From positions 102,049 to 166,048 of the forward strand of contig NW_005434560.1 in NCBI RefSeq assembly GCF_000315625.1: 64,000 nt of DNA, read 5' to 3'. The notes under the pieces are model-generated. The model had not been told where the DNA came from. It was given only the letters and a program-made list of their open reading frames with translations, and did not search any database. Position 1 is the first letter of the stretch. Every line of letters starts with the position of its first letter. The translations under genes were made by a program, and so were the position numbers. This document shows, in pieces, positions 30,491-48,200 of this stretch. This DNA comes from Guillardia theta CCMP2712 (taxonomy: Eukaryota; Protista; Cryptophyta).

Positions 30491-30721
30491 GTGAACCCCA
30501 TCCTGCGCCACCTGCTCACCGAAGCCTCCGGGATCAAGAGCGCCAGGGTCGAGGAGCACGTCAGGCTCGTCCAGGAGCGCAAGCGACAGGAACTCCGCGA
30601 CTACGTCATCGTCTGCATCCAGAGGCTCGACCCCCAGAGGCCCTCCCTCCTCCCGCCTCCCGACCACCACTCCAACGTGCACGCCATCATGGAGGAGACG
30701 CTCCGGAGGTGGAAGGATTAA
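30491..30721 (+). CDS. Hypothetical protein, no in-frame ATG (GTG start or spliced 5' end)
   Basis: Strong C/G third-position bias like neighbouring real genes. Confidence 0.5.
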   Translation: MNPILRHLLTEASGIKSARVEEHVRLVQERKRQELRDYVIVCIQRLDPQRPSLLPPPDHHSNVHAIMEETLRRWKD

Positions 30722-30752
30722 TAGAGAATAAGACAAGAAGACACCACAGGAA

Positions 30753-31250: not shown

Positions 31251-31292
31251 AGTTATTAAAATTCGAACTTTATTCTCGTGTACGTACAAGCT

Positions 31293-32543
31293 CTACTTGG
31301 AGTACTTCTTGGAAAGCATAACCTTGTGCTGATAGTCGAACTCAGAGATCCAGTAATTGAACATCACCCGCTCAATTGCCTCTCCGGTGTTGTTCTTCTT
31401 GAACTCCTCTGTGTACACCTCCGACCCGTCGGCCCTGCGCTTGATCCCCGGATTGGACGGTTGCCAGCCAAGAGCCCTGAAGTCCACAAAATGTTGGTCC
31501 TTCTCGCTGAGCAGGACAAGCGACTCTAGCTTCTTGATCCTCTTATCCTGCAACTTCGAATCATCGGGAGTTGGGGTAGGAGCACGAATGATGTCGAGGA
31601 AATTTTGCATAACAAGACCATGAAACTTCATAGGCTTCAGCATATCTCTCCAAAGCATCTTGAAGGTCTTGTGTACAAACTTGTCATCGAGCGACACATT
31701 GCACAGGATACGGAAGAAATGGCACCACGTCTTTGCCTCGTTCGTGCTCTTGTAGAGAGCTTTCAGCCCTTTGTCCTCATGGGTCAGCTCTTTGTTCTTC
31801 ATCCTGACGACAGATGCCAGGAACATGGAAACACCAACCTTGACGTAGCAATTCTCGTAGCAGGGAACATCTGGCTTCTCCTCGTTCGATCGAAGGATGT
31901 CCAACATACCCAGGATAACATCCCTGGCAAGCTTATTGCGCAGCTCCTTGCACTTCGCGACCTGCTCATCCGGCGGGGCATCGTTGACCTTGGAGACATA
32001 TATCCAGGCTATCTCGGTCATCTCATTCAGATTCTTATACTTGGCCACGGTCACTTTGTTCACAGCGTCATCGTCGGTAGGATCAACATTCGTATTGTCA
32101 CGGATTGAGATCATGTACTTGCGGTATGAAAGCTTGCAATCCGTCTTGATCTGCTCAAACTTTTCCCAGCACATCTTCCCAAGCTTGTCAAAGTCGATGT
32201 CATACTCTGGTTCATATTCCACGTCCTGCCATTGCTGGAATATCGGCGACTGACCCTGCTGACCCTCTGCGGAGTAACCGTCCTCTGGAGTTGGTGTCTC
32301 TTCATCTTCTTCCAACACTTGCGTCTCCTTATCGTCTTCCTCCTCCAGAATCTGCGTCTCGTTATCCAAATCCTCCATCTTCTCACTGACGGGAGAAGGA
32401 CTTGGAGTCGGGGTCGGTGGTATGATGTAGCACTGCTTCTTCATTTCATAGGGTATCTTATCGACGTAATCCCTAGGATCAAATCTCTGAAGCTCGATCT
32501 TGTAATCGTACAACGAAAGGTCTAGCAAGATATTGATAAACAT
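31293..32543 (-). CDS. Hypothetical protein with an acidic/Pro-rich linker
   Basis: ATG at 32543 lies 32 nt after TGTATTTAAA (32575-32584, minus). Confidence 0.75.
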   Translation of the reverse strand: MFINILLDLSLYDYKIELQRFDPRDYVDKIPYEMKKQCYIIPPTPTPSPSPVSEKMEDLDNETQILEEEDDKETQVLEEDEETPTPEDGYSAEGQQGQSPIFQQWQDVEYEPEYDIDFDKLGKMCWEKFEQIKTDCKLSYRKYMISIRDNTNVDPTDDDAVNKVTVAKYKNLNEMTEIAWIYVSKVNDAPPDEQVAKCKELRNKLARDVILGMLDILRSNEEKPDVPCYENCYVKVGVSMFLASVVRMKNKELTHEDKGLKALYKSTNEAKTWCHFFRILCNVSLDDKFVHKTFKMLWRDMLKPMKFHGLVMQNFLDIIRAPTPTPDDSKLQDKRIKKLESLVLLSEKDQHFVDFRALGWQPSNPGIKRRADGSEVYTEEFKKNNTGEAIERVMFNYWISEFDYQHKVMLSKKYSK

Positions 32544-32636
32544 TTCGATGCGTGACCCGACCGCTATACCAGGCTTTAAATACACTCTCTGTCTATTTAA
32601 AAAAAAAACAGAAAAAAACCAACAGAAAAAAAAATA

Positions 32637-32894
32637 ATGCCCACCCTCCCGGACACCCTCCGCGCAGCCACCCTCCTGGCCTCCTTCGGCCTCTTCGTCG
32701 TGCTCCCGCTCTACACCCCGCTGGGGATCGCCCCCGCCATCGCCGGGGCCCTGCGCAACCAGGTGGGTCTCGACGCCTCCCAGTCCGGCCTCTACCGCAA
32801 CGTCTACATCTCCACCGCGGGCCTCTTCGTCCTCTCCCTCTACGTCACCGGGTGCAAGTTCATAAACCCTTCATTGGAAACAAAAGATAATTAG
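32637..32894 (+). CDS. Small two-TM membrane protein
   Basis: Two hydrophobic helices and an upstream TATTTAAA (~32594). Confidence 0.7.
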   Translation: MPTLPDTLRAATLLASFGLFVVLPLYTPLGIAPAIAGALRNQVGLDASQSGLYRNVYISTAGLFVLSLYVTGCKFINPSLETKDN

Positions 32895-34672
32895 ATAGCA
32901 AAGGTCAGCGAGCTCGACATCCCGCTGTACACGTCCGCGAACGTCGTCGCGTGGATAGGAACAGGGTTGAGATAAGCAGGGAAATTCAGGTTGTGATTCG
33001 CTGCGTTTCCACAGAAGAATTTCTGCGGCTGGTTAAAGGTGCAGTGCGTCTTGTTCAGGCCCAGCAACACGTCGATGAACACGACGAGGGAGCCTGCGAT
33101 GATCGCGAAGGCGAAGATTATGGCGTTGAAGTACACGACCCACCTGTAATTGGTGGTCGTGAAGTAATTACAGAGAAGGATGGATGCCACGAATGGAAAG
33201 TTCAACAAATAAGCGAACCATGTCAAAAACTTCGTGGACTCCGCGGGGTTGAGCAGAATGATGTCGTAGACAATCTGGTTGATCCACAGCAACAGAAACA
33301 CGGCAAACACCAAGATCGTATCCATGCTGTAATTGATGGTGAGATTAGGTAGGTCTGGATCTTCCTGCATTAAACCAGGATTTTCATCTGATTCCTTTCC
33401 ATCATCCACCAGGATCGCCCTGGGATTGCCATCCTGATAGGCATCCGGTGCAGTCAAACCAAACTGTGTCCGCATGAATCCAAACCTCGCGTTCTGTTTT
33501 GCGGCCATGTCCATCTCCTTCTGCACCTTGTTGTGCGTACGGATGGGATTAATCCTGCGGTAGTTCAGGAGCATCAGCCCCATGATGAGCAGCACCGATC
33601 GCACAAAGGCCGCCTGGAACGACCACTCCACGGCGTTGTTCACTGCGATGGCGTAGAGACTCAGGATCAAGGTGGGAAAGAGGAAGATTTGCGAGCTCAG
33701 GATCACGTTGATCACTCTGTAGTTCTCGTATGATTCATTGCTTTGCATATTCTTCCCAGGTGGAAGAAAACTATTTGTCATCCGGATGCATGCAATAAGA
33801 TTGATACCTTCGAACATGGCAACGTCCCCCTTCACTTGGTCCTTGCTGCATCTCCTCATAGTAATAATCTGCTGCACAATCGTGGCAGCGATGAGCACCA
33901 GCGCAAAGATGACGTTGTTGCGGGGGATGACCGCGTTGTCGACCTGGAAGATCGCGGAGAAGAGCACCACAATGAGGATTAAAATGTGCCAGAAGGAATA
34001 GATCCAGATCTTGAACATTCCAAAGTATTGCAACAACCAGAAAATCTTGTTTGCCTCAGTGTAACCCGAACAGTCCCAGAGGAGCAACAGCCAGCTCGCG
34101 TACATGAAGAGCACCACCATGACCATGAAGAAGGGATTCCAGGCCGCGGAGAAGGTGATGCTCACGGGGTTGTTGCGGTACAGCGCCACCTGCTTCGAGC
34201 GCTCGATGTTGCACAACCTGTGTTGCCTTTCACGTTCAGTCATAGAGAGACCAGCAGCGTATCCCGCATCCTGGCACAGGTAGTAGGTGTAGTTCCTGCG
34301 GTCCGCGAAGGTGGGTTCGTCGAAGCTCAGAGGCAGGGGAGCCATCGGCATGTACGACATCCCGCCCGGGGTGGTGGTCTGCAGCACCGAAGTCTCCCCG
34401 AAGAGGGTCACGTGCTGGCTGCCGATGGCACGGCCGTACACATTGCTGTACAGCGACTTGAAGATGGGGAAGCTGATCTTGCCCTCATTCTCACCGTAGA
34501 CTTGGATGTGCCGAATGTAAGCACCGAAGAACAGTATGGAACAACAGAACGCCAGCAAGAATAGAGACATGAACAAGCCGCGCTCGGTCTGGGCCATGAT
34601 GCACCGGCTGCCCTTTCCTACACATGCCCTGCCCTCGCCATTTATATGGTGGAGCGCCCGAAAAATTTCCAC
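32891..34672 (-). CDS. Multi-pass membrane protein (probable start MAQTERG ~34597)
   Basis: About 8-9 hydrophobic segments with long loops. A TATAAA lies at ~34641-34646 (minus). Confidence 0.8.
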   Translation of the reverse strand: MEIFRALHHINGEGRACVGKGSRCIMAQTERGLFMSLFLLAFCCSILFFGAYIRHIQVYGENEGKISFPIFKSLYSNVYGRAIGSQHVTLFGETSVLQTTTPGGMSYMPMAPLPLSFDEPTFADRRNYTYYLCQDAGYAAGLSMTERERQHRLCNIERSKQVALYRNNPVSITFSAAWNPFFMVMVVLFMYASWLLLLWDCSGYTEANKIFWLLQYFGMFKIWIYSFWHILILIVVLFSAIFQVDNAVIPRNNVIFALVLIAATIVQQIITMRRCSKDQVKGDVAMFEGINLIACIRMTNSFLPPGKNMQSNESYENYRVINVILSSQIFLFPTLILSLYAIAVNNAVEWSFQAAFVRSVLLIMGLMLLNYRRINPIRTHNKVQKEMDMAAKQNARFGFMRTQFGLTAPDAYQDGNPRAILVDDGKESDENPGLMQEDPDLPNLTINYSMDTILVFAVFLLLWINQIVYDIILLNPAESTKFLTWFAYLLNFPFVASILLCNYFTTTNYRWVVYFNAIIFAFAIIAGSLVVFIDVLLGLNKTHCTFNQPQKFFCGNAANHNLNFPAYLNPVPIHATTFADVYSGMSSSLTFAI

Positions 34673-34680
34673 GGTGCTAG

Positions 34681-35103
34681 CTACGTAGCCTTACCCGCAC
34701 AGCGCAGGAGGTCAACATTCAGGAGGTCCAGGTCCAGAAGCCCCGCGCCCATCCCCCCGAATCCACCCGTGCAAATGCCCGGCACCAGCAAACGGGACGC
34801 CACCGCCACGCTCGAGGTGACGATGAAGAGCACCACAAAGAAGGCCAGCAGGAGGCTGTCCCGCTCCGGCACGGAGAACACCACCGAGAAGCTCGTCGAC
34901 GAGTGCGGGTTGTGGGTGCAGATCACGTCCACGTCGGGGAAGCGGTCCTTCACCCGGTCGTGCATCTCCCCGTTCCACTCCTCGTAGTCCGTCAGCATGC
35001 AGGTCGTCCCGCTCACCACCATGCATCTCCCCCCGTGCGCCTCCGTGTTGCACACCTCCCTGACGTGGGTGCAGATGCGGTCGATCTTGCGCGCCCCCTC
35101 CAT
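34681..35103 (-). CDS. Small membrane-anchored protein
   Basis: ATG ORF with a C-terminal TM (LLLAFFVVLFIVTSSVAV). Confidence 0.65.
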   Translation of the reverse strand: MEGARKIDRICTHVREVCNTEAHGGRCMVVSGTTCMLTDYEEWNGEMHDRVKDRFPDVDVICTHNPHSSTSFSVVFSVPERDSLLLAFFVVLFIVTSSVAVASRLLVPGICTGGFGGMGAGLLDLDLLNVDLLRCAGKAT

Positions 35104-35149
35104 GTTTTCTATAAAACCCTTCTAGCTCGACAACGGGGAGGGAAGAAAT

Positions 35150-36496
35150 ATGGGCAACTACAACTCCAGCCATGACCACATCAACGACAACCCAGACAAC
35201 CCCATCCAGGACACTGCGGGGTGGAGAAACTCCGCGGGTGCCGTGGCTGCAACCACCGCAATAGAAAATGCAAACCACATCGCCATGGACCGCAACCTCC
35301 GCCAGCACGCGATCCGCCAGGCGGTGTATAGGGCCTTATACAAGGTGAGGTTCGAGCAGGTCACCCCACAGGAGGCTTTCTGGATCTACAAGTGGGTGAA
35401 GGCCCTGAACCTGGAATTGCAAGTCACGGAAGGCATCGCGGGCGCTTCCACTCTCTTGAGCTTATCGATCGTCATGAAACCCAACTTCGACGCCCTCTCG
35501 CGGCGCAACGAGGCGCTCAGCGTCGACTTCTGGAAGCAGTTCATCCAAACGGCCGTGAGGGATGCCAATATGATCCCGGAAAACTTCTTTCGAAATGCAA
35601 ACACCATGGAGGAAAATGCAATGAACAACCTCCGGAGCTTCAAGCGGCTTATCAACATCCTCGAGCAGAACATCCACACCCTCACCCCCGTGGCGTGGAA
35701 CTCGCTCTCCGACGCCCTGCAGATCACCCGGCAGGTGTTCGTCGAGCGCGGGGTGGACCTTAACGATTTCATCACGCGCAACGAGGACCAATCGACGGCA
35801 ACCCCGAAATTCACCGAGAGAGAGCTGCTCACCTTCCTCTCCCGCCACCCAATCCTCCGCGAGAGCCTCTCCAAGGCCGCGGGCTCCATCCTCCAGTCCA
35901 CCCTCAACCTCCGTGACGGGGCCTACTCCGGCATTCGCAAGCTCAACGCCAACGACGCTAGGATGATCGGCTACATCCTCTACCTCAAGAGCGAGGTCCG
36001 GAAGCTTGCAGACGAGATCAAGAACGTACTGACCGATGCACTCCTGAACCCGCACAAGTACGTCGAGTATTTCCTCGATGTCACCGATGCCGTGAGGGCG
36101 GACGCGTTCGACGAGTTCCTCGTATCGGACAGCAGGGCGGCGACCCGTAGAAGAGAAGCAGATAGGCCTGTCGCAGGAAGACGAGGAGGAGGAGGGGGCG
36201 GGGGAGGAGGAGGTGGTGGGGGAGGAGGAGGTGGTGGGGGAGGAGGAGGTGGTGGGGGAGGAGGAGGAGGCGGAGGAGGCGGAGGAGGAGGAGGAGGACG
36301 ACGAGATGCTGCAGACGCAGCTCGAGTTGTGGGAAGAAGAGAGGCAGAGGCTAGTTCTATGCCACTGACATCCAACCTCGATGGCGCACAGGACGACCCA
36401 CCCCAGCGCGTCCCCACCACCGGGGGCTCGAACCCCCGCAAGTACATACGGATCAACGGGGAGATGGTTGCACTCGATTCATTCAGGCAAGAATAA
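35150..36496 (+). CDS. Hypothetical protein with a poly-glycine tract
   Basis: 448-aa ORF starting MGNYNSS (myristoylation-like MGxxxS). Upstream TATAAAA (35110), and AATAAA at the stop. Confidence 0.8.
   Translation: MGNYNSSHDHINDNPDNPIQDTAGWRNSAGAVAATTAIENANHIAMDRNLRQHAIRQAVYRALYKVRFEQVTPQEAFWIYKWVKALNLELQVTEGIAGASTLLSLSIVMKPNFDALSRRNEALSVDFWKQFIQTAVRDANMIPENFFRNANTMEENAMNNLRSFKRLINILEQNIHTLTPVAWNSLSDALQITRQVFVERGVDLNDFITRNEDQSTATPKFTERELLTFLSRHPILRESLSKAAGSILQSTLNLRDGAYSGIRKLNANDARMIGYILYLKSEVRKLADEIKNVLTDALLNPHKYVEYFLDVTDAVRADAFDEFLVSDSRAATRRREADRPVAGRRGGGGGGGGGGGGGGGGGGGGGGGGGGGGGGGGGGGGGGRRDAADAARVVGRREAEASSMPLTSNLDGAQDDPPQRVPTTGGSNPRKYIRINGEMVALDSFRQE
36184..36298. repeat. (GGN)n low-complexity repeat encoding ~38 glycines
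   Basis: Tandem gga/ggt/ggg/ggc codons. Confidence 0.95.
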
Positions 36497-36509
36497 AGAG
36501 TAGTATCAG

Positions 36510-38345
36510 TTAAGAAATATAGGGAAGGACCGAGAAGTGCATGCAGTCCGAGCCGCTGCGCCCCACCATGGACAGGATACAGATGTCATGGACGTTCCCG
36601 CGTACCTCCGGGCGGTTGCGCTCGGTGCAGAGCCACACGGCGCGCAGGGTGTGCTCGAAGGGCGCGAGCTCGGGGTCCGCCCGGCACGCCGCCACGATGT
36701 AGCAGAGCCGCGCCACAGCCTCGCGGAGGTTACTGGCAGTGCCACCCCTTTCCATCCCTGACACGCCCATATCCGCCGCCACCCTCGCCGCGGGGAGCAG
36801 GCGCATCCCGCCCACCGCGTAGAGCGCGTAGACCGCCCCGTTCCGGAGGAAGGAGATGAACTGGGCGGAGTCACCCTTGCAGGCCTCCGCCACGCCTCCC
36901 AGCATCCCCATCGCCTTGGCGGCAGGGAGGATCTGCGCCTGGATGGGATTCCCGTCACTCCCATAATCAAATTGGAACTCTATGTCGATGCCGTCCGCCC
37001 TCCCGTAACCGCCCTCCGTCGCCGCCGCGGTGTACCCAGGGGCGTTGAGCAGGCGGATGCCGGCAGGCGCTCCCGCCGCCGCGTTCGCCGCGAGCAGGCA
37101 GTCCTGGATCTCCTCGTCGGTCATACCCAGCCGCATCAGGCCGCGCGTGTCCTCCTCCTTGATGCCGAGCTCGCGGAACACCGCGGGGGAGTTGCTCGAG
37201 CCGTGCGCGGAGAAGAGGTAGCGCTTGCTCTCGGTCCCGTCCCAATACCGCACGCCGCACGCCGCCGCGACCGCCTCGAAGGGCGAGCCCTTACGGATGG
37301 GCTGCGTGGTGATCAGCCCCATGTCCGAGATGCGCCTCCGCGCCTCCTTCCGGTCCGTGAAAGTGCAGGGGATGTCCGTGAAACTCCCTTGAAGCTCGAA
37401 CATGGAGTGCGACACCGCCTTGGCCAGCGACCTGAAGCCGGTGACATAAGGGTCCCGCTTCACCACGGGCTCCAGGATGACAGAGAAGAGCCCGTGAGAC
37501 ACCAGCAGCGACCGCTTCATCTCTCCTCTCCCCAGCTCCGCGATGAAGCCCGGGGCCCTGTTGACGCTGCAGGAACGGAAGAGCACCGTCTCACCCCCCG
37601 CAGCGTGCAGCGTCGAAGCGCCGTGCTCCTGCAGGCTCCCGGCGATGCTCACGGCGTCCCCCTTCCGGTACCGCACCTCCACCGTATCACCCGCCGACCT
37701 CGAGGTGGCCGCGCCCTCCACGCGCAGGAAGCTCTCGGAGCCGTGCGTCCGCTTGGTCAGGAAGTCCTGCACCTCCGCATCCGAGGAGCAGCGCATGGAG
37801 GACCAGCGAGGCACGTTGCGCTCCAAAAAGTCCCGCACCGACGGGCAGCGCAGCGCGGAGGCGCCGGCGGGGGAGGCGAAGTGGAAGGCCTGCACCACGT
37901 TGGGATTGTTCACGCTGGCGTACACGCAGGACTGGATGCCGAACTTGTCACCCTCCTTACCCCCACCCTGGAACGCCAGCAGCACCCCGTCGGGCTTGAC
38001 GGAGGCCTTCATCCCGCGCTTCTTCGGGTCCGCCACACCCCCCGTGCACAGACCCCCCAGGAAGTGCACATCTCTCCCCTCCAGCTTGTCCGCGCGGAGG
38101 ATCTCGCGCAGGCGTGCGCGGACGTAGTCGTTGCGAAGCCAGTGCTTGCGGACCTCCGCGTTGGGTGGCATGTCGGTCCTGGCTGGCTTCGAAGCCAGTG
38201 ACGATGCGGTCGAAGGCACCCTTCTTGGATCGTCCCTGCGCTGGCCCTGCATGAACCTCACCTTCCTCGTATCCCTTCTCGTAGTATCCATCCTTGTAGC
38301 ATCCATTCTTGTAGTGTTCCTCCTATCACCCGCAATCGACACCAT
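36510..38345 (-). CDS. Hypothetical protein (611 aa)
   Basis: Long ATG ORF with an upstream TGTATAAAA (38388-38396, minus). Confidence 0.8.
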   Translation of the reverse strand: MVSIAGDRRNTTRMDATRMDTTRRDTRKVRFMQGQRRDDPRRVPSTASSLASKPARTDMPPNAEVRKHWLRNDYVRARLREILRADKLEGRDVHFLGGLCTGGVADPKKRGMKASVKPDGVLLAFQGGGKEGDKFGIQSCVYASVNNPNVVQAFHFASPAGASALRCPSVRDFLERNVPRWSSMRCSSDAEVQDFLTKRTHGSESFLRVEGAATSRSAGDTVEVRYRKGDAVSIAGSLQEHGASTLHAAGGETVLFRSCSVNRAPGFIAELGRGEMKRSLLVSHGLFSVILEPVVKRDPYVTGFRSLAKAVSHSMFELQGSFTDIPCTFTDRKEARRRISDMGLITTQPIRKGSPFEAVAAACGVRYWDGTESKRYLFSAHGSSNSPAVFRELGIKEEDTRGLMRLGMTDEEIQDCLLAANAAAGAPAGIRLLNAPGYTAAATEGGYGRADGIDIEFQFDYGSDGNPIQAQILPAAKAMGMLGGVAEACKGDSAQFISFLRNGAVYALYAVGGMRLLPAARVAADMGVSGMERGGTASNLREAVARLCYIVAACRADPELAPFEHTLRAVWLCTERNRPEVRGNVHDICILSMVGRSGSDCMHFSVLPYIS

Positions 38346-38499
38346 TCACCCCACACGACGGTCCCGCCCGGGATGCAAAGACCCGTCTTTTATACACACC
38401 CTCGATTCATCACAGGCATGCATCTACCAAACAAAACACGAGCAACATATATGAACCATTGCAGGGTAGAAGTACAAGGAAGACAGCATTGTCAGTAGC

Positions 38500-39051
38500 A
38501 TGCATTGGGCCAAGCACACCTGCGCCCTGATACCAGCATTCATGGTCCTCTTCTGGATCTTCATGTTTGCCTTCTCCAGGGCCTTCATGCTCTACTCGGA
38601 GTACCAGGCAGAGATCGCCAGGCTCAACGACGACGCATGGCTCCGGGTCAAGTGCAAGGACCCGGAGTTCTTCCACAACATCAAGCAGCACACCGACCTC
38701 TGCCTCAAGGTAGAGCAGAACGCCAGGAAGTCCTGCCTCCTCGTCGCCCTCAACACCGTCGCCTCCACCACCTACCTCTGCGGCTACAGGAGCTGCGCCG
38801 ACTACCTCACCGACGCCGTCCTCTGGGTGATGGGCTTCGGCCTCCCCGCCGTACTCCTCATCTCCGTATGCCTACTCCTCTTCCCCACGGTGCTCTACCC
38901 CGTCTACTCCTCGTACCTCAACCGTATGGCCGACCGCAGAGTCATGGCCCTCTACAACGCACCCTACGGGATGGAGCACTACTCCGCCTCCCACCCCAGG
39001 CTCGTCTACCCCGTCATACAGGACATGGAGGATGCGAAGAAGTTGGTGTGA
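38500..39051 (+). CDS. Two-TM protein with a Cys-containing luminal loop
   Basis: TM, then a loop with C...C...LCGxxxC, then a second TM. Confidence 0.8.
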   Translation: MHWAKHTCALIPAFMVLFWIFMFAFSRAFMLYSEYQAEIARLNDDAWLRVKCKDPEFFHNIKQHTDLCLKVEQNARKSCLLVALNTVASTTYLCGYRSCADYLTDAVLWVMGFGLPAVLLISVCLLLFPTVLYPVYSSYLNRMADRRVMALYNAPYGMEHYSASHPRLVYPVIQDMEDAKKLV

Positions 39052-39096
39052 CAAAGTTGATATTCTCTCGTTGTACGTAGATCAATATATGTCATA

Positions 39097-39549
39097 TTAA
39101 AAATAATGCTTTACAGGAGCTACGCCGACTGATGATTCACACTGATGTGATTCACACTGGTCAGTTGGTAGGATGACTGGAGGGGTGGTGGGTTCATCTT
39201 CTTCGCCATCAAACTTTGGCTTACCCAGGTTTTTCGTATCTTTGGAACGCGTGATAAACTTGACCTCTGTGATAACGACCTGCTTGGGCATGTAGGGTTT
39301 CTTCAGCTCCCTGGAACAGATATCCGAGAGCTTGACCTCCATGATGTTGCGGAGGTTCTTCCTGATATCCTCCTTGAGGTTCACCTGCGCATCGAGAAGA
39401 GAGAGGATCTGCAGGCACTCTTTCACCTCAGAGAGGCACGACTCCTGAGGTTCGTCTACGCTTCCCGAGGCTGAAGAATCACCAAACATCTGTTGGTGAC
39501 GCACCCATGCCTGCAAGCGCTCAGTTGTCATCTTCTCAGTTCGATCCAT
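39097..39549 (-). CDS. Hypothetical protein (150 aa)
   Basis: ATG ORF with an upstream CGTATAAAA (~39584-39592, minus). Confidence 0.7.
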   Translation of the reverse strand: MDRTEKMTTERLQAWVRHQQMFGDSSASGSVDEPQESCLSEVKECLQILSLLDAQVNLKEDIRKNLRNIMEVKLSDICSRELKKPYMPKQVVITEVKFITRSKDTKNLGKPKFDGEEDEPTTPPVILPTDQCESHQCESSVGVAPVKHYF

Positions 39550-39701
39550 CGTGGCGAATAGTCAGACAGACCCACATCAGGGGTTTTATACGCTTCGTTT
39601 TTTTTACTCCCTGTTTTTTTCATTTTTTATTTAAAAAAAAATTCCCGCCTTTTTTTAGGAGTCAATAAAAAGACCGCTGCGAAGTTCACCCTCCACTGCC
39701 C

Positions 39702-40091
39702 ATGCAATCCCAGGCAGCCGTCATGGAGACGCTGATGAAGAAAGACATCCAGCTGCAGAAGATGCAGCACGCCATCGACTGGTACAACGGGTACAAGCAG
39801 CACCGCGAGAAGGTCGACCGCGTGGTGTGCGCCAACCTCTCATCCTCAGACCGGTTGAACCCTACCCTGCTCACCAAGGTCGAGAGCGAGCTTTTCTCAC
39901 CCGACAAGCGTTACCAAGAGTACAAGCCACCGGAGGACCTTCTCCCGCGGCTTGCTTTCTCGGACGTCGTCTCTCTCGACACCGCGGAGCTAGCCCTCCG
40001 CATCACCAGGATCGAGGAGGAGATCGATGCATGCAAGAAGCAACCAGCCTATCGCGCCATGATGCAAGAGCTGAATGATGCCTTGAAGTAG
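39702..40091 (+). CDS. Hypothetical coiled-coil protein (129 aa)
   Basis: ATG ORF with AATAAA immediately downstream. Confidence 0.75.
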   Translation: MQSQAAVMETLMKKDIQLQKMQHAIDWYNGYKQHREKVDRVVCANLSSSDRLNPTLLTKVESELFSPDKRYQEYKPPEDLLPRLAFSDVVSLDTAELALRITRIEEEIDACKKQPAYRAMMQELNDALK

Positions 40092-40176
40092 AGTTCTAAT
40101 AAAAAAAAAGAAAGTATTTGTGGCTCTAAGCTTGTCGGTATGCCAGCACATCTCACCTCCAATAACACCCCCAACC

Positions 40177-40353
40177 ATGTCGGAAGAAGAATGCGATGTC
40201 GTGTTTGCAATCAACGAGAGTGAGGAGCAGATCGCAAGGAACATCGTCCGTCTGATCCAACACGAGAGACAGACGCAGCCTTCTCCCTCCATGGCAGAAG
40301 ACACCATGGAGCAGGGACCGGGAGGGACAACTACCGGTGATTCATCGGTGTGA
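40177..40353 (+). CDS. Small acidic hypothetical protein
   Basis: accATG context, short ORF before the palindrome. Confidence 0.45.
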   Translation: MSEEECDVVFAINESEEQIARNIVRLIQHERQTQPSPSMAEDTMEQGPGGTTTGDSSV

Positions 40354-40410
40354 GAGGGGTAGGGTACTTAACGGTACTAAATTGAGTAAATTTATAATAC
40401 TTATATAGCC

Positions 40411-40775
40411 GGTCTCCCAGGAAAGGCCCCCCCCCTTGGCCAGAATCTGGAAACCGTTAAACCGTTAAACCGTTAAACCGTTAAAACCTTCAACCACAGT
40501 CCGGCGATTCTTGTCCTTTGATCATTTTAAATAAGGTTCGCCGGACATATATATATATACATATATTACATACATAGATACATACATATACATAGTATGT
40601 ATATACATACATACATATACATACATATACATACATACTATATACTATATACATACTATACGTATACTGTCCGGCGAACCTTCTTTAAAGGTTTTAAAGA
40701 CCGTTAACCTTTAACGGTTTAACGGTTTAACGGTTTTCAGATTCTGGCCAGAGGGGGGGCCTTTCCCTGGGGACC
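40411..40775. repeat. Nested inverted repeat with 8-bp iterons and a 120-bp AT-rich core, candidate replication origin
   Basis: Outer arms at 40411-40486 and 40710-40775. AAACCGTT x4 (40451-40482) faces AACGGTTT x3 (40713-40736). A perfect 15-bp inner IR AAGGTTCGCCGGACA (40533-40547 / 40668-40682) flanks a (TA/TACA)n spacer at 40548-40667. Confidence 0.9.
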
Positions 40776-40821
40776 CAGGTCGGGGTATGAGGGCGATGAT
40801 ATTTTTTTATTTTTTTTTTAC

Positions 40822-41463
40822 TCAAACAGCGCATCGACAGATGTCGGCGACGGTGATGCGCCAGAGGTCCTCGGTGCGGCGCAGGATCTCCGTGTGGATG
40901 TCGGGGGAGACCATCTGCATGTACCAGGGGAGGTCCTGGTGGATGACGGTGATGTTGGCGGTGGGGGACGCTCCCGAGACCACGGGGGTAACGACGGAGA
41001 CGGTGATAGAGGAGACAACGGGTAGGTTGGATATGACGGCGTTCTCGTTCATGACAAACCTGTCCGATGAAGTACAGTCGAGCAGGTCTTGGTCCTTGTG
41101 CTGGAAGGCCTGGATGTTGCCCACGAAGGGCTTCAGGAAGGCGGGTGGCGTGACGGGCACATGGTAGTCCACGCTGCGGCTGAAGACGACGTGGGTGTCA
41201 CAGGTATTGGAGAGGTCGGAGATGGGGATGTTCCTCCACTTTCCCAGGCTGATGCCCTGCACGCCGGAGTCCCAGCGGCTGAGCCTCTTCTTGATGGCGT
41301 CGTCGCTCATGTAGAGGACGTACTGCAGGGGCTTGTTGACATTGCAGTGGCAGGACGGGAAGGCAAGCGAGGAGGTGAAGGTAGAGAGCGATGATATCGG
41401 TAAGGGCAGAAAGAGTAAGACGGTAGCCAACAGCAGGAACGCTTCGGCGGCGGCCTGATTCAT
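40822..41463 (-). CDS. Signal-anchored protein, possibly START/VASt-like helix-grip lipid-binding fold
   Basis: N-terminal hydrophobic segment, a run of beta-strands (GKW...RSVDY...NLP) and a long C-terminal helix after LPW. The fold call is tentative. Confidence 0.45.
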   Translation of the reverse strand: MNQAAAEAFLLLATVLLFLPLPISSLSTFTSSLAFPSCHCNVNKPLQYVLYMSDDAIKKRLSRWDSGVQGISLGKWRNIPISDLSNTCDTHVVFSRSVDYHVPVTPPAFLKPFVGNIQAFQHKDQDLLDCTSSDRFVMNENAVISNLPVVSSITVSVVTPVVSGASPTANITVIHQDLPWYMQMVSPDIHTEILRRTEDLWRITVADICRCAV

Positions 41464-41557
41464 GGCAGGGGTTTTCTGTTTTCTGGAAACACGCGGTCGT
41501 TTGCTCGTTTTATACCCAAGCGGGTATTAGGGGTGGGATGCGTGGGGGGGCAGGGAA

Positions 41558-42487
41558 ATGGCGGGTCAAGACGAAGCGATGGACGCTCGGCTTCTGGAGA
41601 CTTATATCCCGGCTTTCTTCATGATCATGAAGACCATTGCCGTGCTGGGCTTCATCCCCTTCGCAGGCTGGCTGGGCATGTCAAACGAGCACGTCTTCAA
41701 TCTCATTGGGACGCTCCTGTTTGTGGACCGCGTGCTGTTCAACGTGGAGGTGCAGGGTGGGATCGATTCCAACATGTCCGTGGCTTGCGTCTTGCTGTGC
41801 TTCGTGATCAACACGGAGAGGGTATGGACAGCCTATGTCGACACGGCCCTGGATATTGTCCTAAATGTGACTTGGTGCCTGCTGGCGCTGTTCCTGCTGG
41901 TGAAGGATGAGCTGCCCTTGGGCCACCACTGGATGATGTCCCTGCTCCCGAGCCCGGATATAATCATCGGGGCGGGGATGTTCTATGTCCACACCCTGCT
42001 TCCGCTGTCCTCCGCCTCCGTGCTCGAGCTCTCCATACGCGCCATCGTCTTCCAGTGCCTCTCCGTCAGCTGGTTCTACACCTTCCGGATGCGGGTCAGG
42101 GACCCCCTTGACACCCCCTTCACGCTTTGTATAAGTAGGTTCTTCCCCGTGATGTTCGTGGGCCCCATCGTCGCGTGCGTCTTCGCCGGGATGGTGTGGG
42201 TGTGCATCATGGTCAAGTTCTACCGGCAGCAGGGCGAGTTCCGGGCGTATTTTGTGCAGGTGGACAGGCATCGGAAGGCCCCCACACCGGATCCCATCGA
42301 GACCCCCATCTTGTACACCCAGAGGAGGCAGAGGAACCAAGCCTCCCATTCCACTGTTTATATTCCTGGCTCTCCCATGCCTGTCCCTTACGAGAGCGCA
42401 GAGGACGCGGAGGGCGACGAGGACACCATGCTGCTCAGGGAGATGCTGCAGAGGGGCAGGGAGGGGATCGAGTCCGGGATGGTTTGA
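41558..42487 (+). CDS. Multi-pass membrane protein
   Basis: About 7 hydrophobic segments and a polar C-terminal tail. Confidence 0.8.
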   Translation: MAGQDEAMDARLLETYIPAFFMIMKTIAVLGFIPFAGWLGMSNEHVFNLIGTLLFVDRVLFNVEVQGGIDSNMSVACVLLCFVINTERVWTAYVDTALDIVLNVTWCLLALFLLVKDELPLGHHWMMSLLPSPDIIIGAGMFYVHTLLPLSSASVLELSIRAIVFQCLSVSWFYTFRMRVRDPLDTPFTLCISRFFPVMFVGPIVACVFAGMVWVCIMVKFYRQQGEFRAYFVQVDRHRKAPTPDPIETPILYTQRRQRNQASHSTVYIPGSPMPVPYESAEDAEGDEDTMLLREMLQRGREGIESGMV

Positions 42488-42510
42488 GGGGATCGAGTCC
42501 GGGATGGTTT
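42461..42510. repeat. Perfect 25-bp tandem duplication spanning the stop codon
   Basis: gaggggatcgagtccgggatggttt occurs twice. Confidence 0.95.
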
Positions 42511-42559
42511 GATGCGCTGTATTTAAATGATCTGTGTGTGCAGGGATCAACTGTGTGTC

Positions 42560-42958
42560 ATGTTTGCCTATTGGATTTTCAAGGAGCCCTACCAGCACAT
42601 CTTTCAGTGCGATGAGGCTTGTAAGGCCACAGATGATAAGATCAGGGCCGTGGACAAGAAGGAGAATGATTTTAATGAGTTGCTTGATATGATGAATAAG
42701 GGTTACATCTACTGTGCATGCGACAAGAACACGCTGTCGGAAGAAGACCGCGAGTACTACGACCACAGAAAGAGCATCATTAAGGAGTACTTCACTGCCA
42801 AGCTCGAAGCTTACCAAGCGGCCATGGCCTGCCTGAAGAAGCACATGAAGACCCTCTCCGTGACGTCAAACGCGGAGGAGCTCAAAAATTGCACCAAGCT
42901 CGAGACAGAGTTCGACAACGAGATCATCAGATACAGCATCAAGGTCATGGAGATGTAG
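42560..42958 (+). CDS. Hypothetical helical protein
   Basis: ATG 32 nt after TGTATTTAAA (42518), with AATAAA at 42995. Confidence 0.75.
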   Translation: MFAYWIFKEPYQHIFQCDEACKATDDKIRAVDKKENDFNELLDMMNKGYIYCACDKNTLSEEDREYYDHRKSIIKEYFTAKLEAYQAAMACLKKHMKTLSVTSNAEELKNCTKLETEFDNEIIRYSIKVMEM

Positions 42959-43115
42959 ACTCACCCTGTAGGATGTCCTGGTAGAATTAAACAGAATAAA
43001 CCTCTGCGTAATAATAACCATGTGCGCACCCGCGTGTATAAGGGACGGGATCGAGTCTGGGCTGGTTTGATGCTCTGTATTTAAAGGATATTACACAACA
43101 CGGGGGCATCACGTC

Positions 43116-43568
43116 ATGTTCAAGGCAATATACAATTTCTTTTCAGGGACGACGGGCAAGCGGAAGCGCTACGAGATGGATGATGTAACGGTACCATGCA
43201 AGTGGACGAATGAACATTACAGCCCAGAAAGATGGATCTCGGAGCTGAGTGACGGTCCGTTTCTCGAGAATGCAGAAAAACAACTCACTGTCCTCCGTCT
43301 ATACGAGAAAGCCACTGAAGACATGATTCAGGATATGGAAGACACTAAACGTGAGATGGGATCCTTGAGAGATGATCTTTCTCAGAATTGGCGGAATGCT
43401 ACCGGTAGTCATGCACAAAGATATTTCGACATGCTTGCTAAAACCAACTCTATCATCCGTAACCACAAGTCGCTGATGACTAGGTTTGTAATTCCGTATC
43501 TCTACTGTGCCAGCAACATAGATTCGTTGAAGGAAGCCATCCATATGGTAAAGGAGAGTAGCGCGTAA
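43116..43568 (+). CDS. Hypothetical helical protein with KRKR NLS-like motif
   Basis: ATG 30 nt after TGTATTTAAA (43076), with AATAAA at 43587. Confidence 0.75.
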   Translation: MFKAIYNFFSGTTGKRKRYEMDDVTVPCKWTNEHYSPERWISELSDGPFLENAEKQLTVLRLYEKATEDMIQDMEDTKREMGSLRDDLSQNWRNATGSHAQRYFDMLAKTNSIIRNHKSLMTRFVIPYLYCASNIDSLKEAIHMVKESSA

Positions 43569-43626
43569 GTGATGCCCGTGGTAGATAATAAACCTCTACG
43601 TAATAATAACCATGTGTGCACCCGTG

Positions 43627-43636
43627 TGTATAAAAG
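43627..43636 (+). promoter_or_regulatory. TGTATAAAAG TATA-type promoter (second motif class)
   Basis: Similar (G)TATAAAA elements precede genes at 26113(-), 35150(+), 38345(-), 39549(-), 41463(-), 51425(-) and 61458(+). Confidence 0.7.
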
Positions 43637-43684
43637 AAACCATGCGGGCGGGGGCTGCCATGTACCGAGCGGGGGAGACGAGCC

Positions 43685-45262
43685 ATGTCGAACTTCTTCG
43701 GGAACCTGAACAACCCGCGCATGCCCGAGGTGGTGATGAACCAGGGCCCGCTGCCGCCGCTGAGCACCGACAACCTCCCGTACGGCCTGAACGGGACGGC
43801 GGATGCGAGGATCAACTACAACAATGCGCTCCTTGGGGACATCAGTCCGTACGTCTACGGGGATTCCGCCCGCATCACCACCCAGACCTCCTACCTCAAC
43901 CAGAGCTACCGTATCCAGAAGATCGTGCCTGAGCTGTACCTCCCCCCCATCGGGGACGGGCACGGGCTGGTGAAGGTGTCGCACGCCGTGGATTACGGGG
44001 ATATCGCCTGGTCGCTCCGGCTCAGAAACATCTCCGCCACGCTCGGGGTGTTCATGAAGTCGGCCGAGGGCGTCGGGGACAACGGGACGCACATCACCGC
44101 CTTTGTCAATTTTCCCACGGTGAACTACATCCTGGTGGGGTTCCAGAACCTGTGGTTTCGGAGGCGAGCCGTGCCTGCCGTTCCCGCCACCTCTTCGGAC
44201 AAGGCTTGGCTCCGCCTGTGGTTCGACCTGTTCAACCTGACGGGGAACCCGGAGGACTTTGGTCAGTTTATGAATGGGATCACAACTGTGCAGGATATTT
44301 CGGAGAAGCTCATGAAGATCATCACCCCCTTCGGCGTGTCGGTGCAGTCCGAGAAGCAGGGTGGGATGCACGAGGTGGGCCTGAGCCCGGTGATGTGGGC
44401 GGTCAACCACCTGACGAGCATCAACATCGACGGGATGACGCGGGACATGATCAACTATTGGAGACATATAGATGTCAACTCCGGGGATAGGATCTGCTTC
44501 CGCCTCATGCCCATCGACCTGAGCGGGGACCAGCGGGCGACCCTGAACCACTTCTACAAGCATATCGTCAACCTCGAGTTCACCGTGAGCGAGGGGAGAT
44601 ACGAGATCCTTGTCCCCGATACCTACCCGTACTGCATCCCCGGGGATAAACTTCTAAGGGTGCCGGATGCAGCCGTGCGGCAGGAGTACAACAGGAGGAA
44701 GATGCACTGGTACATCGGCACGACACAGCAGCACTACCCCAAGATGTACGAGGAGTTCAGTGAGATGAAGAAGTTCATGGACGATACCGCGTTCTTGAAG
44801 GGCGCGCTGCTGCAGACCACCATCACGCCGATGCTGGTGAATTCTAGGATACGTCATGTTGCGGATGGGGCTATCTCCTTCTTTGGCTCCCGCCTCTCTG
44901 CGTCTGATCCCCGCAAGCGCGCGCTGGGGGTGACCTGGGCGGACGAGCGGCAGGGCGGGAAGCGCAGGTTCGCGCTGTCCGGGCCACCGCCTCCCAAGTT
45001 CAGTCTCCCGCAGCAGGCTCCCCAACAAGCTCCGCAACAGACCCCGCAACAAACCTTGCAATCCCGGAACGGCCTCGACATCGACGCCCTGCTGCGGGAG
45101 GGTGGGCTTCAGGGATCCGCTGAAGGTGCAGCCCCCGAAGAGCCCAGGAACGTAGTCCCCCAGGCCGTCGCCACCGGCTCCGCCCTCAAGCCCAAGAAGC
45201 AGGTCGCCAAGCCCGTGGGCGGGAAGGAGAAGAGGGATGGGGTAGCGGTGTCCGTGGTTTAG
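43685..45262 (+). CDS. Probable capsid triplex subunit (mirusvirus type)
   Basis: Motifs KIVPELYLP, HAVDYGDIAW, VNFPTVNYIL, PFGV..SEKQGG and IDG...MINYW...SGD resemble mirusvirus triplex proteins as I recall them. Disordered C-tail. Not verified by search. Confidence 0.45.
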   Translation: MSNFFGNLNNPRMPEVVMNQGPLPPLSTDNLPYGLNGTADARINYNNALLGDISPYVYGDSARITTQTSYLNQSYRIQKIVPELYLPPIGDGHGLVKVSHAVDYGDIAWSLRLRNISATLGVFMKSAEGVGDNGTHITAFVNFPTVNYILVGFQNLWFRRRAVPAVPATSSDKAWLRLWFDLFNLTGNPEDFGQFMNGITTVQDISEKLMKIITPFGVSVQSEKQGGMHEVGLSPVMWAVNHLTSINIDGMTRDMINYWRHIDVNSGDRICFRLMPIDLSGDQRATLNHFYKHIVNLEFTVSEGRYEILVPDTYPYCIPGDKLLRVPDAAVRQEYNRRKMHWYIGTTQQHYPKMYEEFSEMKKFMDDTAFLKGALLQTTITPMLVNSRIRHVADGAISFFGSRLSASDPRKRALGVTWADERQGGKRRFALSGPPPPKFSLPQQAPQQAPQQTPQQTLQSRNGLDIDALLREGGLQGSAEGAAPEEPRNVVPQAVATGSALKPKKQVAKPVGGKEKRDGVAVSVV

Positions 45263-45278
45263 GCATTTATTAAATGAT

Positions 45279-48200
45279 TTACTGGGGTGCATCGATCAGG
45301 TTGGATGACTTTAGGATGAGCTCGTAGGATTCCTTGTTGTAATCACTCTGTCTTGTGTGGTTCAGAAGCTTATTGACGGTGGGTGTAAAGGGCCATGGTG
45401 CATTGATCCCATCAGGCTTCCATTTGATCATCAGTTCGTTCCATGCCTTCTTCTTCTCCTGCAATCCCTTGCGGATCTGCTTCCGCATGTCCCGCTCCCG
45501 GAAGCTCCCATACATGTCGATGAGGTCGTAGTTGCCATCCGTGGGTGGCTTCCGGCCGATTTCGTAATTGTCTGGGTTGTAGGTGATGGCGGTGTAGGCC
45601 GCGTTGATGAGGTTGGAGCTGTAGAAATTCTGGAATTGCACGACAATGTCCTCTAAACTATTCCCAGGGAGATTCTCGATGCAGTACCACGGGAAGTACA
45701 TATCGGCGGATAGGTGGTCAAAGAAAGACACAGGGGTCCACAGCTCGGTGTGCCTCAGCCGGTGGCTCACGATGGTGTACCAAGTGTCGGAGGTCCTTTG
45801 CATATAGTAGCTTGATTTTTTGTTTTTGGCCTTTGCAGTTTCGTTTGTTTTCAGCGATTTGATGACATAGGCCATGTTCAGCGTGAACTTGTGCAGGGCG
45901 CGGATGTATCGGAACACCCAGCGGTGCAGCACTCCGTCCCAGTTGGACTCTTCGATACTGACCTCTGGGGTGTTGTCGCCGAATAGCTCTGTCTTGTGAT
46001 TGTTCTTCATATTCTCGATGGACTTCTTCAAGATTTCAGCGAAGACCTTGCCGCTCACAACGATGGTTGCACTCCCTGAACTGTATTTGACAACCTGCAT
46101 GTTCCGCGCGACCCTGCTCCGCGTGACGTATAGCTGATTGTATGCTAACTTGGGTAGGACTTGCTTCAAGCGGTACTTCACGACGCTGTCGCGGTCGAGG
46201 TGGATGTGCAGGATACGGGTGAAGTCTTCCTTAGGGAGGGTATGAAGAATTCCTATGATGTGTACCTTCCAGGGTGTGGCGCTGCTGACCGACGTGGTGG
46301 AGGAGGGGTGGCTGTGGGCGGGGCTTGGAGATCGGGGGCGCTTGTTGGAAGCTTCAGGATCTTCATATAGAAGCCCTCCGCGATTGTGACCCCCTCTGGT
46401 ATGGGGTGGGTTCCATACTTTTTCGTGGTCAATCTCTTGATCGCGGGACGGCTTGGGAGAGTTAGAAGCTTCCTCCTTTCTCACAAATCCGGGGAGTACA
46501 CCCGGAGAGTGCTTTCTGACGTTGGAAGCTTTAGAATCTTCATCTGTGTTCTTCCCTCCAATCCCTCTTTGATCGTGGGCCTTTCTGACACCGGGGTCGT
46601 TATCCATCTGCGTATGGTGTCTGTTATCGGGTTCCATGTCAGGCTCTTCCGGTTCCATGTCAGGCTCACTTTCGTTGTCTTTCTCGCTTGCATTGTCTTC
46701 CATCCCATCTCCATCTGCACCAAGTTTGGCGTGCATGGGAGTGGGAGAGGAAGGGGAATATGTGGGAGAAGGAGGGGAATATGTGGGAGAAGGAGGGGAA
46801 TATGTGGGAGAAGGAGGGGAATATGTGGGAGAAGGAGGGGAATATGTGGGAGAGTGAGGAGATAAATCAATAGACTGAATCCTTCCCTTCTGATACGCCA
46901 GTTCCATGTTGTACAGAGCATTCGTGTATAAACTGAGCATTGCCCTCAAATTAATAAATGAATCGACATCATTCATTTTCAGTTGACTGGCATTGATCTC
47001 TATCGTTGACATCTGTAAGAGAATGCCATTTGTTATATCCTTCAGGTATGCGTATTTTTTAAGTTCAGAATCAATATCCTTGTAAATTCGCCATGTTTCC
47101 TTCAACTGAGAAACGAGTGAATTCAGAATATTGTTGGGTGGTACGATTGCTGTCCCTAATGCTGTCTTGTATGTAAATTGGTAATCCATGGTAAATATTT
47201 CATTGAGTTTATCGATAATCTTCTTCTTGGTATCTTCCCAATGATTTTTCATCACAGTTTCCATATGATCTGTTGAGACTTGTTGCTTTTTAGCAACATC
47301 TTTGATGATGCCAAGTGAATTTTCCCGTAACGTTCCGTCCAGCCTTGGGTACTTAGTGATTCCTGACATCGGTGTCAGCTTGTCGATCACTTCCGTCAAT
47401 GGGGCGTTGGTGAGGGTGACGTAGAAGTCATCCCAGGAGCGCATGGACCATGTCAGCATGGGCTTGTCGTTCTCCGCCGCGCCAGGCAGCCTGGCTATCT
47501 CCAGGTCGGCGGCTTTGTCGTCCTCACCGGCCAGGATGACCTGGATCATGTGCTCGAAGTTCGTCACGATGTTCATGAGGTTGGTGGTATCCATGTTTGT
47601 CGTTTGTACGGTCATGCGCGTGAAGGGGTTCAGGAATGTCTGGTTGTGGAGGATGAAGGAAAGTATCGCCTCCTGCTGTAGTGTTATCCTTAGTTTCTTG
47701 CGGTAGTCGTAGTAGATACCCTTGATGATCTCGACGAATGAGTTGATGACGTAGGGCATGAGGCGGACGATTTTGAGCGGATCGTCTTCCTTGATCAGCC
47801 TTCTTGTATTGATGTACAGGCTGGTTGTCAGCTTCTTCACCTTGGGGTTGAGGTGCAGGGAACATTCCTTGAATTGTTTCGCGCTGTGCTGGTAGTTGAC
47901 GCTCTGGATGACGAGGATCTTAAGCACGCGCTGCATGACGACGGATATGACCATCTTGCAGCCCATGATGTACTTCACGATGGCTTGCTTGGCTGTTTCG
48001 TTCTGTTTACCCACCGCGAAATTGTACAGTTCAATCAGCGTGCTTTTGGGACTTGTGTCCCTGTACCGTGTGGTGTTGGATACTTCCGTGATTTTCGACA
48101 TAAACTTTTTCCGGTTTTCAATGACGCGATCGATGCCATGTTTCTCTATATTATGCAGGTTAGTGGTGGACTGGTCCAGGGATATCTTGAGTTGAAGTAA

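What the first reader, a model, noticed from the sequence alone, without database searches (positions are those of the whole stretch)
40411..40775. Candidate replication origin with herpes simplex oriS-like box III / box I / AT / box II geometry plus iterons
Seen: a non-coding nested palindrome between convergent genes. A 120-bp (TA/TACA)n core is flanked by the perfect IR AAGGTTCGCCGGACA...TGTCCGGCGAACCTT. A third, mismatched, inverted copy (GTCCGGCGATTCTT, 40499-40512) lies upstream of the left box. Outside are 4+3 inverted AAACCGTT iterons and C-run/G-run arms. Known: HSV oriS has an inverted weak box III, box I (CGTTCGCACT), an AT spacer and an inverted box II. The GTTCGC core and the orientations match here. 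Inference: an initiator-bound unwinding origin, with a second protein binding the iterons. A packaging or terminal signal is the alternative. The hexamer match alone could be chance.
Basis: partly seen in the sequence, partly recalled or inferred. Interest (0 to 1): 0.85.

Follow-up and report, generated by a model that had tools for sequence, protein, structure and literature searches.

The report
Mirusvirus replication origin at strand-bias switch
A 440-base mirror-image DNA element in a herpes-related virus, likely of cryptophyte algae, sits exactly where the DNA strand bias flips, so it is likely the start point of two-way genome copying, a site I found described for no mirusvirus; its likeness to the herpes simplex origin is likely one of layout only.

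Summary
The nested palindrome is real, far beyond chance, and somewhat larger than reported (about 40373-40807). The window is a mirusvirus genome piece: it has a herpes-triplex fold, a UL92-like protein, a heliorhodopsin and a histone, and its closest named relatives are in cryptophytes.

The main new evidence is strand bias. The cumulative G-C and keto skew minima of the 64 kb fall inside the element (40715 and 40680). At silent codon sites, whichever way genes point, the best polarity switch among 39 gene gaps is this one (permutation p 0.0004-0.0007; 0.007 over all gaps). The core is the least stable 120-bp duplex in the window.

Contigs from four studies carry the arms and 8-bp repeats. 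Two of them hold further copies with unrelated flanks. There is no target-site duplication and no terminal inverted repeat.

The best reading is a bidirectional replication origin (0.72). Membership of the HSV oriS family is not supported: the box matches 6 of 8 bases and lacks the CAC shared by all three HSV boxes, the spacer is 120 rather than 18 bp, and none of 181 window ORFs is UL9-like. The initiator is unknown. Copies per genome are unresolved.

The parts
40373..40410 (.). Left A/T-rich extension, shared between copies that have different flanks
   Evidence: contigs of X1 and X2 match from 40373 and have unrelated sequence before it; X6 and X8 match from 40375
40369..40374 (+). Single TAACGG-type site at the left border
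   Evidence: (D6)
40411..40450 (.). Left outer arm (C-run plus a 13-bp perfect inverted segment)
40451..40482 (+). Four tandem 8-bp repeats, each holding a TAACGG-type hexamer on the minus strand
40498..40512 (-). Degenerate third copy of the 15-bp box (3 mismatches); varies in other copies (40497, 40498, 40499, 40506)
40533..40547 (+). Left 15-bp box
40548..40667 (.). TA/TACA core; least stable 120-bp duplex of the window; predicted unwinding element
   Evidence: -118 against window mean -178, sd 12.6; next weakest -143 kcal/mol
40668..40682 (-). Right 15-bp box, perfect inverse of the left
40700..40736 (-). One reversed site (40701) and three inverted 8-bp repeats (40713-40736)
40738..40775 (.). 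Right outer arm (G-run)
40776..40807 (.). Right G-rich extension, shared between copies up to 40799-40819
   Evidence: tables 7 and 8
20000..64000 (.). Strand-bias domain centred on the element: plus strand C/A-rich at silent sites from about 20 to 40 kb and G/T-rich from 40 to 64 kb
40177..40353 (+). 58-aa ORF ending just left of the element (flank, not part of it)
40822..41463 (-). 213-aa gene converging on the element (flank); conserved in relatives at 81-92%
43685..45262 (+). Capsid triplex-like gene that places the window among mirusviruses

Best explanation
The element is likely a bidirectional DNA replication origin of a mirusvirus that probably persists in a cryptophyte alga. Shown: a dyad of 8-bp repeats and 15-bp boxes surrounds the most easily melted 120 bp of the window, and the strand bias flips there regardless of gene direction. 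Inferred: proteins bind the inward-facing repeats and boxes, the TA/TACA core opens, and two forks leave in opposite directions. Over many generations this leaves the leading strands G/T-rich. Inferred with less support: the bias fades or reverses about 20-30 kb to the left because forks meet forks from another copy or cross a rearranged segment. The initiator is not identified. The TAACGG repeats would suit a Myb-type protein of host or virus (motif recalled, untested).
For: Skew position: cumulative G-C minimum 40715 and keto minimum 40680; 40176 and 40335 with the element masked.
Silent sites: at fourfold-degenerate sites of 40 genes the element's gap is the best of 39 breakpoints, permutation p 0.0004 and 0.0007 at the site and 0.007 over all gaps. 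It stays best in 40 of 41 (keto) and 39 of 41 (G/C) leave-one-gene-out runs. 91-93% of bootstraps put it within 38-43 kb, and 25 of 30 genes beyond 20 kb agree. A scan of 122 positions gives 40500 in all three model shapes, with 'jump then gradual decline' fitting better than a plain step (log-likelihood gain 116 against 59). Gradients inside the genes 3341-9406 and 18642-23930 run the same way. Unassigned DNA flips too (-0.133 at 20-40 kb, +0.067 at 41-56 kb).
Sign: it matches the bacterial rule of a G-rich leading strand (PMC1904460 passage).
Core: least stable duplex of the window.
Conservation: arms and repeats are kept in contigs of four studies, and flanks differ between copies while the element stays about 85-100% alike. 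Homologues of both flanking genes are listed with the same 2,625-base contig length.
Against: No direct measure of initiation, and no read-depth gradient (only contigs were laid). Only 64 kb of a 243,622-base contig could be read. The T-versus-A part of the bias alone is weak (52% of bootstraps in 38-43 kb). Only 4 of 11 genes left of 20 kb agree, and unassigned DNA at 56-64 kb has the opposite G/C sign. The sign rule is not universal (opposite in budding yeast, recalled), so a terminus is not excluded. Herpesviruses with known origins show no clear skew switch (PMC1904460). No initiator, helicase or polymerase was found among 181 ORFs. In one X6 contig the repeats run almost straight into TA repeats with no 15-bp box between, so the box may not be universal (one 24-letter loose end). 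I picked the gene set by hand: 40 of the 59 ORFs, dropping 19 overlapping or short ones.
Confidence: 0.72

Rival explanations
1. The element marks where replication ends or where genomes are cut and joined: a fork terminus, a resolution site, or a packaging or terminal junction. Forks would arrive from both sides and the leading strand would be C/A-rich.
For: It also predicts a polarity switch here. Long inverted arms could extrude as a cruciform. C-run and G-run motifs occur in herpes packaging signals (recalled). An earlier AI note proposes this for a giant-virus palindrome (e1-5493854, unchecked).
Against: The bias jumps abruptly at the element and changes gradually away from it, the shape expected of a fixed origin with dispersed termination. 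The core is the easiest stretch to melt. The interior is not a perfect palindrome, as a hairpin-telomere junction would be.
Confidence: 0.1
2. The element is a recombination or inversion hotspot, and the skew switch comes from inverting one flank of a genome that is biased in one direction.
For: One X1 contig joins 40411 to 40763 on opposite strands, and one X8 contig pairs the right arm with the inverted left extension. A named cryptophyte gene model (P0010) joins homologues of 43685-44260 (+) with 35004-34771 and 34576-34154 (-), a different gene order in a related virus.
Against: Uniform bias plus one inversion would give a plain step, which fits much worse than a jump with decline. The joints are equally explained by copies whose left arm resembles this right arm. 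The P0010 order implies breakpoints near 35.1 and 44.3-45.3 kb, roughly symmetric around the element, not at it. Such an inversion keeps fork polarity.
Confidence: 0.07
3. The element is a transcriptional enhancer or double terminator (for example a cell-cycle enhancer built of Myb-type sites) with no role in starting replication.
For: 9 of the window's 17 TAACGG hexamers lie inside it; the Myb/MSA reading is recalled. It lies between convergent genes, next to poly-A/T tracts.
Against: It does not explain a bias switch reaching 20 kb on each side at silent sites, independent of gene direction. It can coexist with origin function.
Confidence: 0.06
4. The element is a MITE or selfish foldback element that spreads among viral loci.
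For: Several copies with unrelated flanks occur in X1 (at least 3 left and 5 right contexts) and X2.
Against: No target-site duplication. The shared ends are not inverted repeats (5 of 30 matches). There is no second copy in the 64 kb. A fresh insertion would not sit at a long-standing skew switch.
Confidence: 0.04
5. The element is a true oriS homologue, recognised by a UL9-like initiator inherited from the common ancestor with herpesviruses. This is a special case of the best explanation, not an alternative to it.
For: The order and orientation of weak box, box, AT core and inverted box match HSV oriS. GTTCGC is shared. The capsid triplex fold links the virus to herpesviruses.
Against: The CAC shared by HSV Boxes 1-3 is missing. 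The spacer is 120 against 18 bp. The weak box lies 20 nt from the left box instead of forming a tight hairpin with it, and it varies between copies. No Herpes_ori_bp or helicase hit in 181 ORFs and no RVKNL motif. A search for mirusvirus plus UL9 gave 3 papers; passages of two place UL9-like proteins in nucleocytoviruses or were false hits, and the third was seen only as a listing.
Confidence: 0.06

Closest known systems
HSV-1 oriS (Box 3 / Box 1 / AT spacer / Box 2, bound by UL9); PMC12543377 and PMC13458718, passages seen
   Same: Inverted boxes face an AT-rich centre, a weaker inverted box lies outside one of them, and GTTCGC is shared.
   Different: The box lacks CAC; the spacer is 120 bp against 18; it has 4+3 tandem 8-bp repeats and long G/C arms; no UL9-like gene was found in the window; and it shows a clear strand-bias switch, which PMC1904460 says is not seen at herpesvirus origins.
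EBV oriP dyad symmetry element (EBNA1 sites plus telomere-like nonamers recruiting TRF2 and ORC); recalled, not from a call
   Same: A dyad with short telomere-like repeats in a herpes-related nuclear virus that may persist in its host.
   Different: No sequence match was tested, no EBNA1-like protein is known here, and persistence as an episome is not shown for this virus.
Baculovirus homologous regions (hrs); recalled, also named in earlier AI notes
   Same: A palindromic non-coding element present in several genomic contexts, a possible origin and enhancer.
   Different: One long nested dyad with a 120-bp melting core instead of arrays of short palindromes. Several copies per genome is not established here.
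Replication-associated strand asymmetry at bacterial oriC (PMC1904460 passage) and mammalian skew jumps (recalled)
   Same: An abrupt switch to a G/T-rich plus strand at a fixed site, visible at silent codon positions.
   Different: It is seen in a eukaryotic virus over a 40-45 kb domain, and tied to one defined sequence element.

Membership tests
Alphaherpesvirus oriS (UL9-type origin) | High-affinity boxes matching GTTCGCAC / GCTCGCAC / GTTCTCAC | tested here: not met
   0 exact matches to any HSV box inside the element; the box is 6 of 8 and lacks CAC
Alphaherpesvirus oriS (UL9-type origin) | Two inverted boxes around an AT-rich spacer, plus an inverted weak third box | tested here: met
   layout only
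Alphaherpesvirus oriS (UL9-type origin) | Short (18-bp) spacer, and Box 3 close enough to Box 1 to form a 12-bp stem with a 3-nt loop | tested here: not met
   120-bp spacer and 20 nt between third and left box
Alphaherpesvirus oriS (UL9-type origin) | Virus encodes a UL9/OBP SF2 helicase | tested here: inconclusive
   0 of 181 ORFs hit Herpes_ori_bp or any helicase family; only 64 of about 244 kb could be read
Bidirectional replication origin (functional class) | Strand-bias polarity switch independent of gene direction | tested here: met
Bidirectional replication origin (functional class) | Easily unwound element flanked by repeated binding sites | tested here: met
   (computed stability; binding itself not shown)
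Bidirectional replication origin (functional class) | Nascent strands start there, or it supports autonomous replication | not testable with these tools
   needs experiment
MITE | Terminal inverted repeats at the element ends and a target-site duplication | tested here: not met
   with ends taken; flanks of other copies could not be paired
Baculovirus hr-like dispersed origins | Several copies within one viral genome | tested here: inconclusive
   several contexts per sample, one copy in 64 kb; several related viruses per host is an equal reading
Mirusviricota (the carrier genome) | Herpes-like virion module with heliorhodopsin and histone | tested here: met
   triplex-like fold, E 4e-4, top hits all chains of herpesvirus capsids; heliorhodopsin, histone and UL92 Pfam hits. 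The major capsid protein, portal and terminase were not identified in the window.

The most novel reading that the evidence does not exclude
This is a host-licensed, oriP-like origin. Host Myb- or telobox-type proteins bind the TAACGG repeats and bring the algal replication machinery to a viral episome. Several copies spaced about 50-60 kb apart fire bidirectionally, so a herpes-related virus copies its genome like a small eukaryotic chromosome, and co-resident mirusviruses keep or exchange a near-identical origin cassette while their genes diverge.
Probability: 0.22. Interest if true: 0.88.

Novelty: new variant of a known kind. Interest (0 to 1): 0.7.

Why it matters
How mirusviruses copy their DNA in the nucleus is open. 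PMC12768974 (section 10, read in full) reports that two major orders lack DNA polymerase and other replication genes and must rely on host enzymes, which it calls unique among viruses above 140 kb. My searches found no described mirusvirus origin. A defined 440-bp site with independent compositional support, in a virus whose relatives sit in culturable cryptophytes, makes the question directly testable: which protein binds, and whether the host licenses it. The clear skew switch also suggests a two-fork (theta) mode unlike herpesvirus lytic replication, and gives a way to find origins in the 1,200 or so environmental mirusvirus genomes.

Tried and rejected
- Whole-genome search: no genome is held for this window.
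- DNA patterns in viral contigs: 2, 0, 0 and 1 loci; all 3 loci were unrelated on inspection.
- Metagenome pattern scan: 11 of 11 loci were bacterial-looking coding DNA, not the element (10 look like purQ, label recalled). The one scan therefore gave nothing.
- Prokaryote genome contigs: 0. Plasmids: no match.
- Triplex relatives in viral contigs: none confirmed.
- Rfam: 11 sub-threshold hits driven by the TA repeat, rejected.
- G-quadruplex idea: a motif at 40753-40793, but 32 such motifs occur in the window, so it is not specific.
- The N gap at 791-977 as a hidden second copy: its flanks show no arms.
- Candidate initiator: the 611-aa ORF 36510-38345 has 7 relatives but no structural match with E up to 0.001 in PDB or BFVD and no Atlas hit; the wider structural search was busy and was not run. 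The 448-aa ORF gave no Atlas hit. PHROGs on 35 ORFs gave only the stand-alone exonuclease as a clear hit.
- The mammalian skew paper PMC1174978 is not held, and one paper search on skew sign gave 0 results, so sign conventions beyond bacteria are recalled.
- No supplements were read; tables of mirusvirus genomes there could mention such elements.

Full report
Observation. The structure is as described. A 120-bp TA/TACA core at 40548-40667 is flanked by a perfect 15-bp inverted repeat. A third inverted copy with 3 mismatches lies at 40498-40512. Four and three inverted 8-bp repeats and C-run/G-run arms lie outside, between convergent ORFs. None of 30 Markov simulations of the window gave an inverted repeat of 15 bp or more within 500 bp, and none of 100 shuffles folded as well (z -14.45). 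There is no second copy in the 64 kb.

The carrier genome. Pfam on 44 main ORFs gave Herpes_UL92, heliorhodopsin, histone and a stand-alone 3'-5' exonuclease; 137 further frames gave one sub-threshold hit. The 525-aa ORF at 43685, folded from a 68-sequence alignment (pLDDT 69.9), matches chains of herpesvirus capsids of triplex size (best E 4e-4, low TM-scores). Its closest named homologues are Guillardia theta gene models, and the 183-aa ORF has Hanusia phi homologues. Heliorhodopsins and histones are mirusvirus core functions (PMC12768974, section 10), and cryptophyte assemblies hold 18 mirusvirus capsid homologues in 3 assemblies (PMC10827195 passages). Three window proteins are recorded in NCBI, UniRef and EukProt on a 243,622-base contig, close to the 265-kb mean mirusvirus genome. 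I infer a mirusvirus resident in a cryptophyte; its order, and whether it is episomal or integrated, are not determined.

Strand bias. The cumulative G-C and keto skews of the window reach their minima at 40715 and 40680, and at 40176 and 40335 when the element is masked. To remove gene-direction effects I used fourfold-degenerate sites of 40 hand-picked genes (40 of 59 ORFs, chosen before per-gene values were seen but after the window profile; a 41st was added from then on). Genes pointing away from the element are G/T-richer at these sites than genes pointing towards it, on both sides. G/(G+C) pooled is 0.55 (left, minus) and 0.51 (right, plus) against 0.44 (left, plus) and 0.35 (right, minus). 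The element's gap is the best of 39; permutation p is 0.0004-0.0007 at the site and 0.007 over all gaps. It is best in 40 of 41 and 39 of 41 leave-one-out runs, and 40500 is the best of 122 positions under three model shapes. A jump with gradual decline fits better than a step, and two long genes on the left show internal gradients in that direction. Against this: T versus A alone is weak, only 4 of 11 genes left of 20 kb agree, there is no signal in the 16 genes more than 18 kb away (p 0.2-0.4), and unassigned DNA at 56-64 kb has the opposite sign. The sign fits an origin under the bacterial rule; the same paper notes that herpesviruses show no clear switch (PMC1904460 passages).

Melting. 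The core is the least stable duplex of the window at 50, 100 and 120 bp (-118 kcal/mol against a mean of -178 and a next weakest of -143).

Other copies. Eight public runs from 5 studies hold part of the region. I laid contigs of five runs; X1 may be the source and is not independent. In X1 the flanks have depth 68-75, while other contigs match from 40373 or up to 40799-40819 and then continue in unrelated sequence: at least 3 left and 5 right contexts, counting the window's own. X2, from another study, shares one of those right flanks. X6 and X8 (freshwater and lake metagenomes) carry arms and repeats with few changes, and X6 also carries the same left neighbour. So the conserved unit is about 40373-40807. 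The third box varies between copies. The left box and most of the core were skipped as repeats (40539-40644), so their conservation is only partly seen, and one X6 contig seems to lack the box. I could not obtain full sequences of the copies. They may be several origins of one genome or single origins of several co-resident viruses. X2 holds a diverged homologue of the 38500 gene at equal depth, two distinct triplex homologues carry the same species name, and co-resident mirusviruses are reported in another protist (10.64898/2026.07.28.741200 passages), which favours the second reading. The fading bias on the left favours the first. There is no target-site duplication or terminal inverted repeat.

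Gene order. The gene model P0010 joins homologues of three window genes in an order that an inversion of about 35-45 kb, roughly centred on the element, would give. This is one event read from a probably chimeric gene model, so it is weak support.

Comparison with oriS. The HSV boxes are GTTCGCAC, GCTCGCAC and GTTCTCAC (PMC12543377 Table 1), with an 18-bp spacer (PMC13458718). The element copies the layout but matches 6 of 8 bases, lacks the shared CAC, has a 120-bp spacer and has no UL9-like gene in the readable part. It works like a dyad-plus-melting-core origin but fails membership of the oriS family. The better-conserved feature is the 8-bp repeat: 9 of the window's 17 TAACGG hexamers are in the element. 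From memory this is a Myb/MSA-type site and resembles telomere repeats, as in EBV oriP; that link is untested.

Novelty and verdict. Searches of the held library found no described mirusvirus origin (term look-ups in three mirusvirus papers). Earlier AI notes report similar dyads in other mirusviruses without functional support; I did not test them. The element is most likely a bidirectional origin (0.72), a new variant of a known kind, with interest 0.7 because it has independent compositional support and makes mirusvirus replication testable.

Noticed in passing
window 42486-42531 / 43044-43089 and 42995-43041 / 43587-43633: Two pairs of 46-47 bp near-identical TATA-containing upstream segments around the small genes at 42527 and 43116, suggesting a tandem duplication of promoter modules.
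   Followed up: no
window 36510-38345 (-): Conserved protein of about 555 aa with only 7 relatives, a fairly confident model (pLDDT 73.8) and no structural match; it lies 2 kb from the element.
   Followed up: partly
window 30753-31250 (+): Stand-alone 165-aa 3'-5' exonuclease domain related to the PolB proofreading domain, with no polymerase in the window.
   Followed up: no
window 11118-12098 (+): Herpes_UL92-family hit (E 4e-7). UL92 is a late-transcription factor of beta- and gammaherpesviruses (recalled); the term does not occur in the main text of PMC12768974.
   Followed up: no
window 57160-59355 (+): Histone fold at the C-terminus of a long ORF, with a 67-bp internal direct repeat at 58449-58515 / 58545-58611.
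   Followed up: no
window 39643 to 40802: One X6 contig (depth 7.27) joins these two poly-T tracts, skipping the element and two ORFs: either a relative without the element here or a poly-T artefact (table 5c).
   Followed up: no
window 40754-40816: Contigs of X2 and X6 carry the right G-rich module alone, with unrelated sequence on its inner side: solo arms or diverged elements.
   Followed up: no
window about 18-21 kb: A second, downward change of silent-site polarity: a candidate fork-meeting zone or rearrangement boundary.
   Followed up: partly
window 45279-51425 (-) and 13567-15150 (-): Large ORFs with lower GC3 than their neighbours and internal repeats (21-bp x5.4 at 46741; Ala/Gly-rich repeats near 14000), possibly fibre or surface proteins.
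   Followed up: no
window 59347-59379: Perfect 11-bp tandem repeat, three copies, between convergent genes.
   Followed up: no
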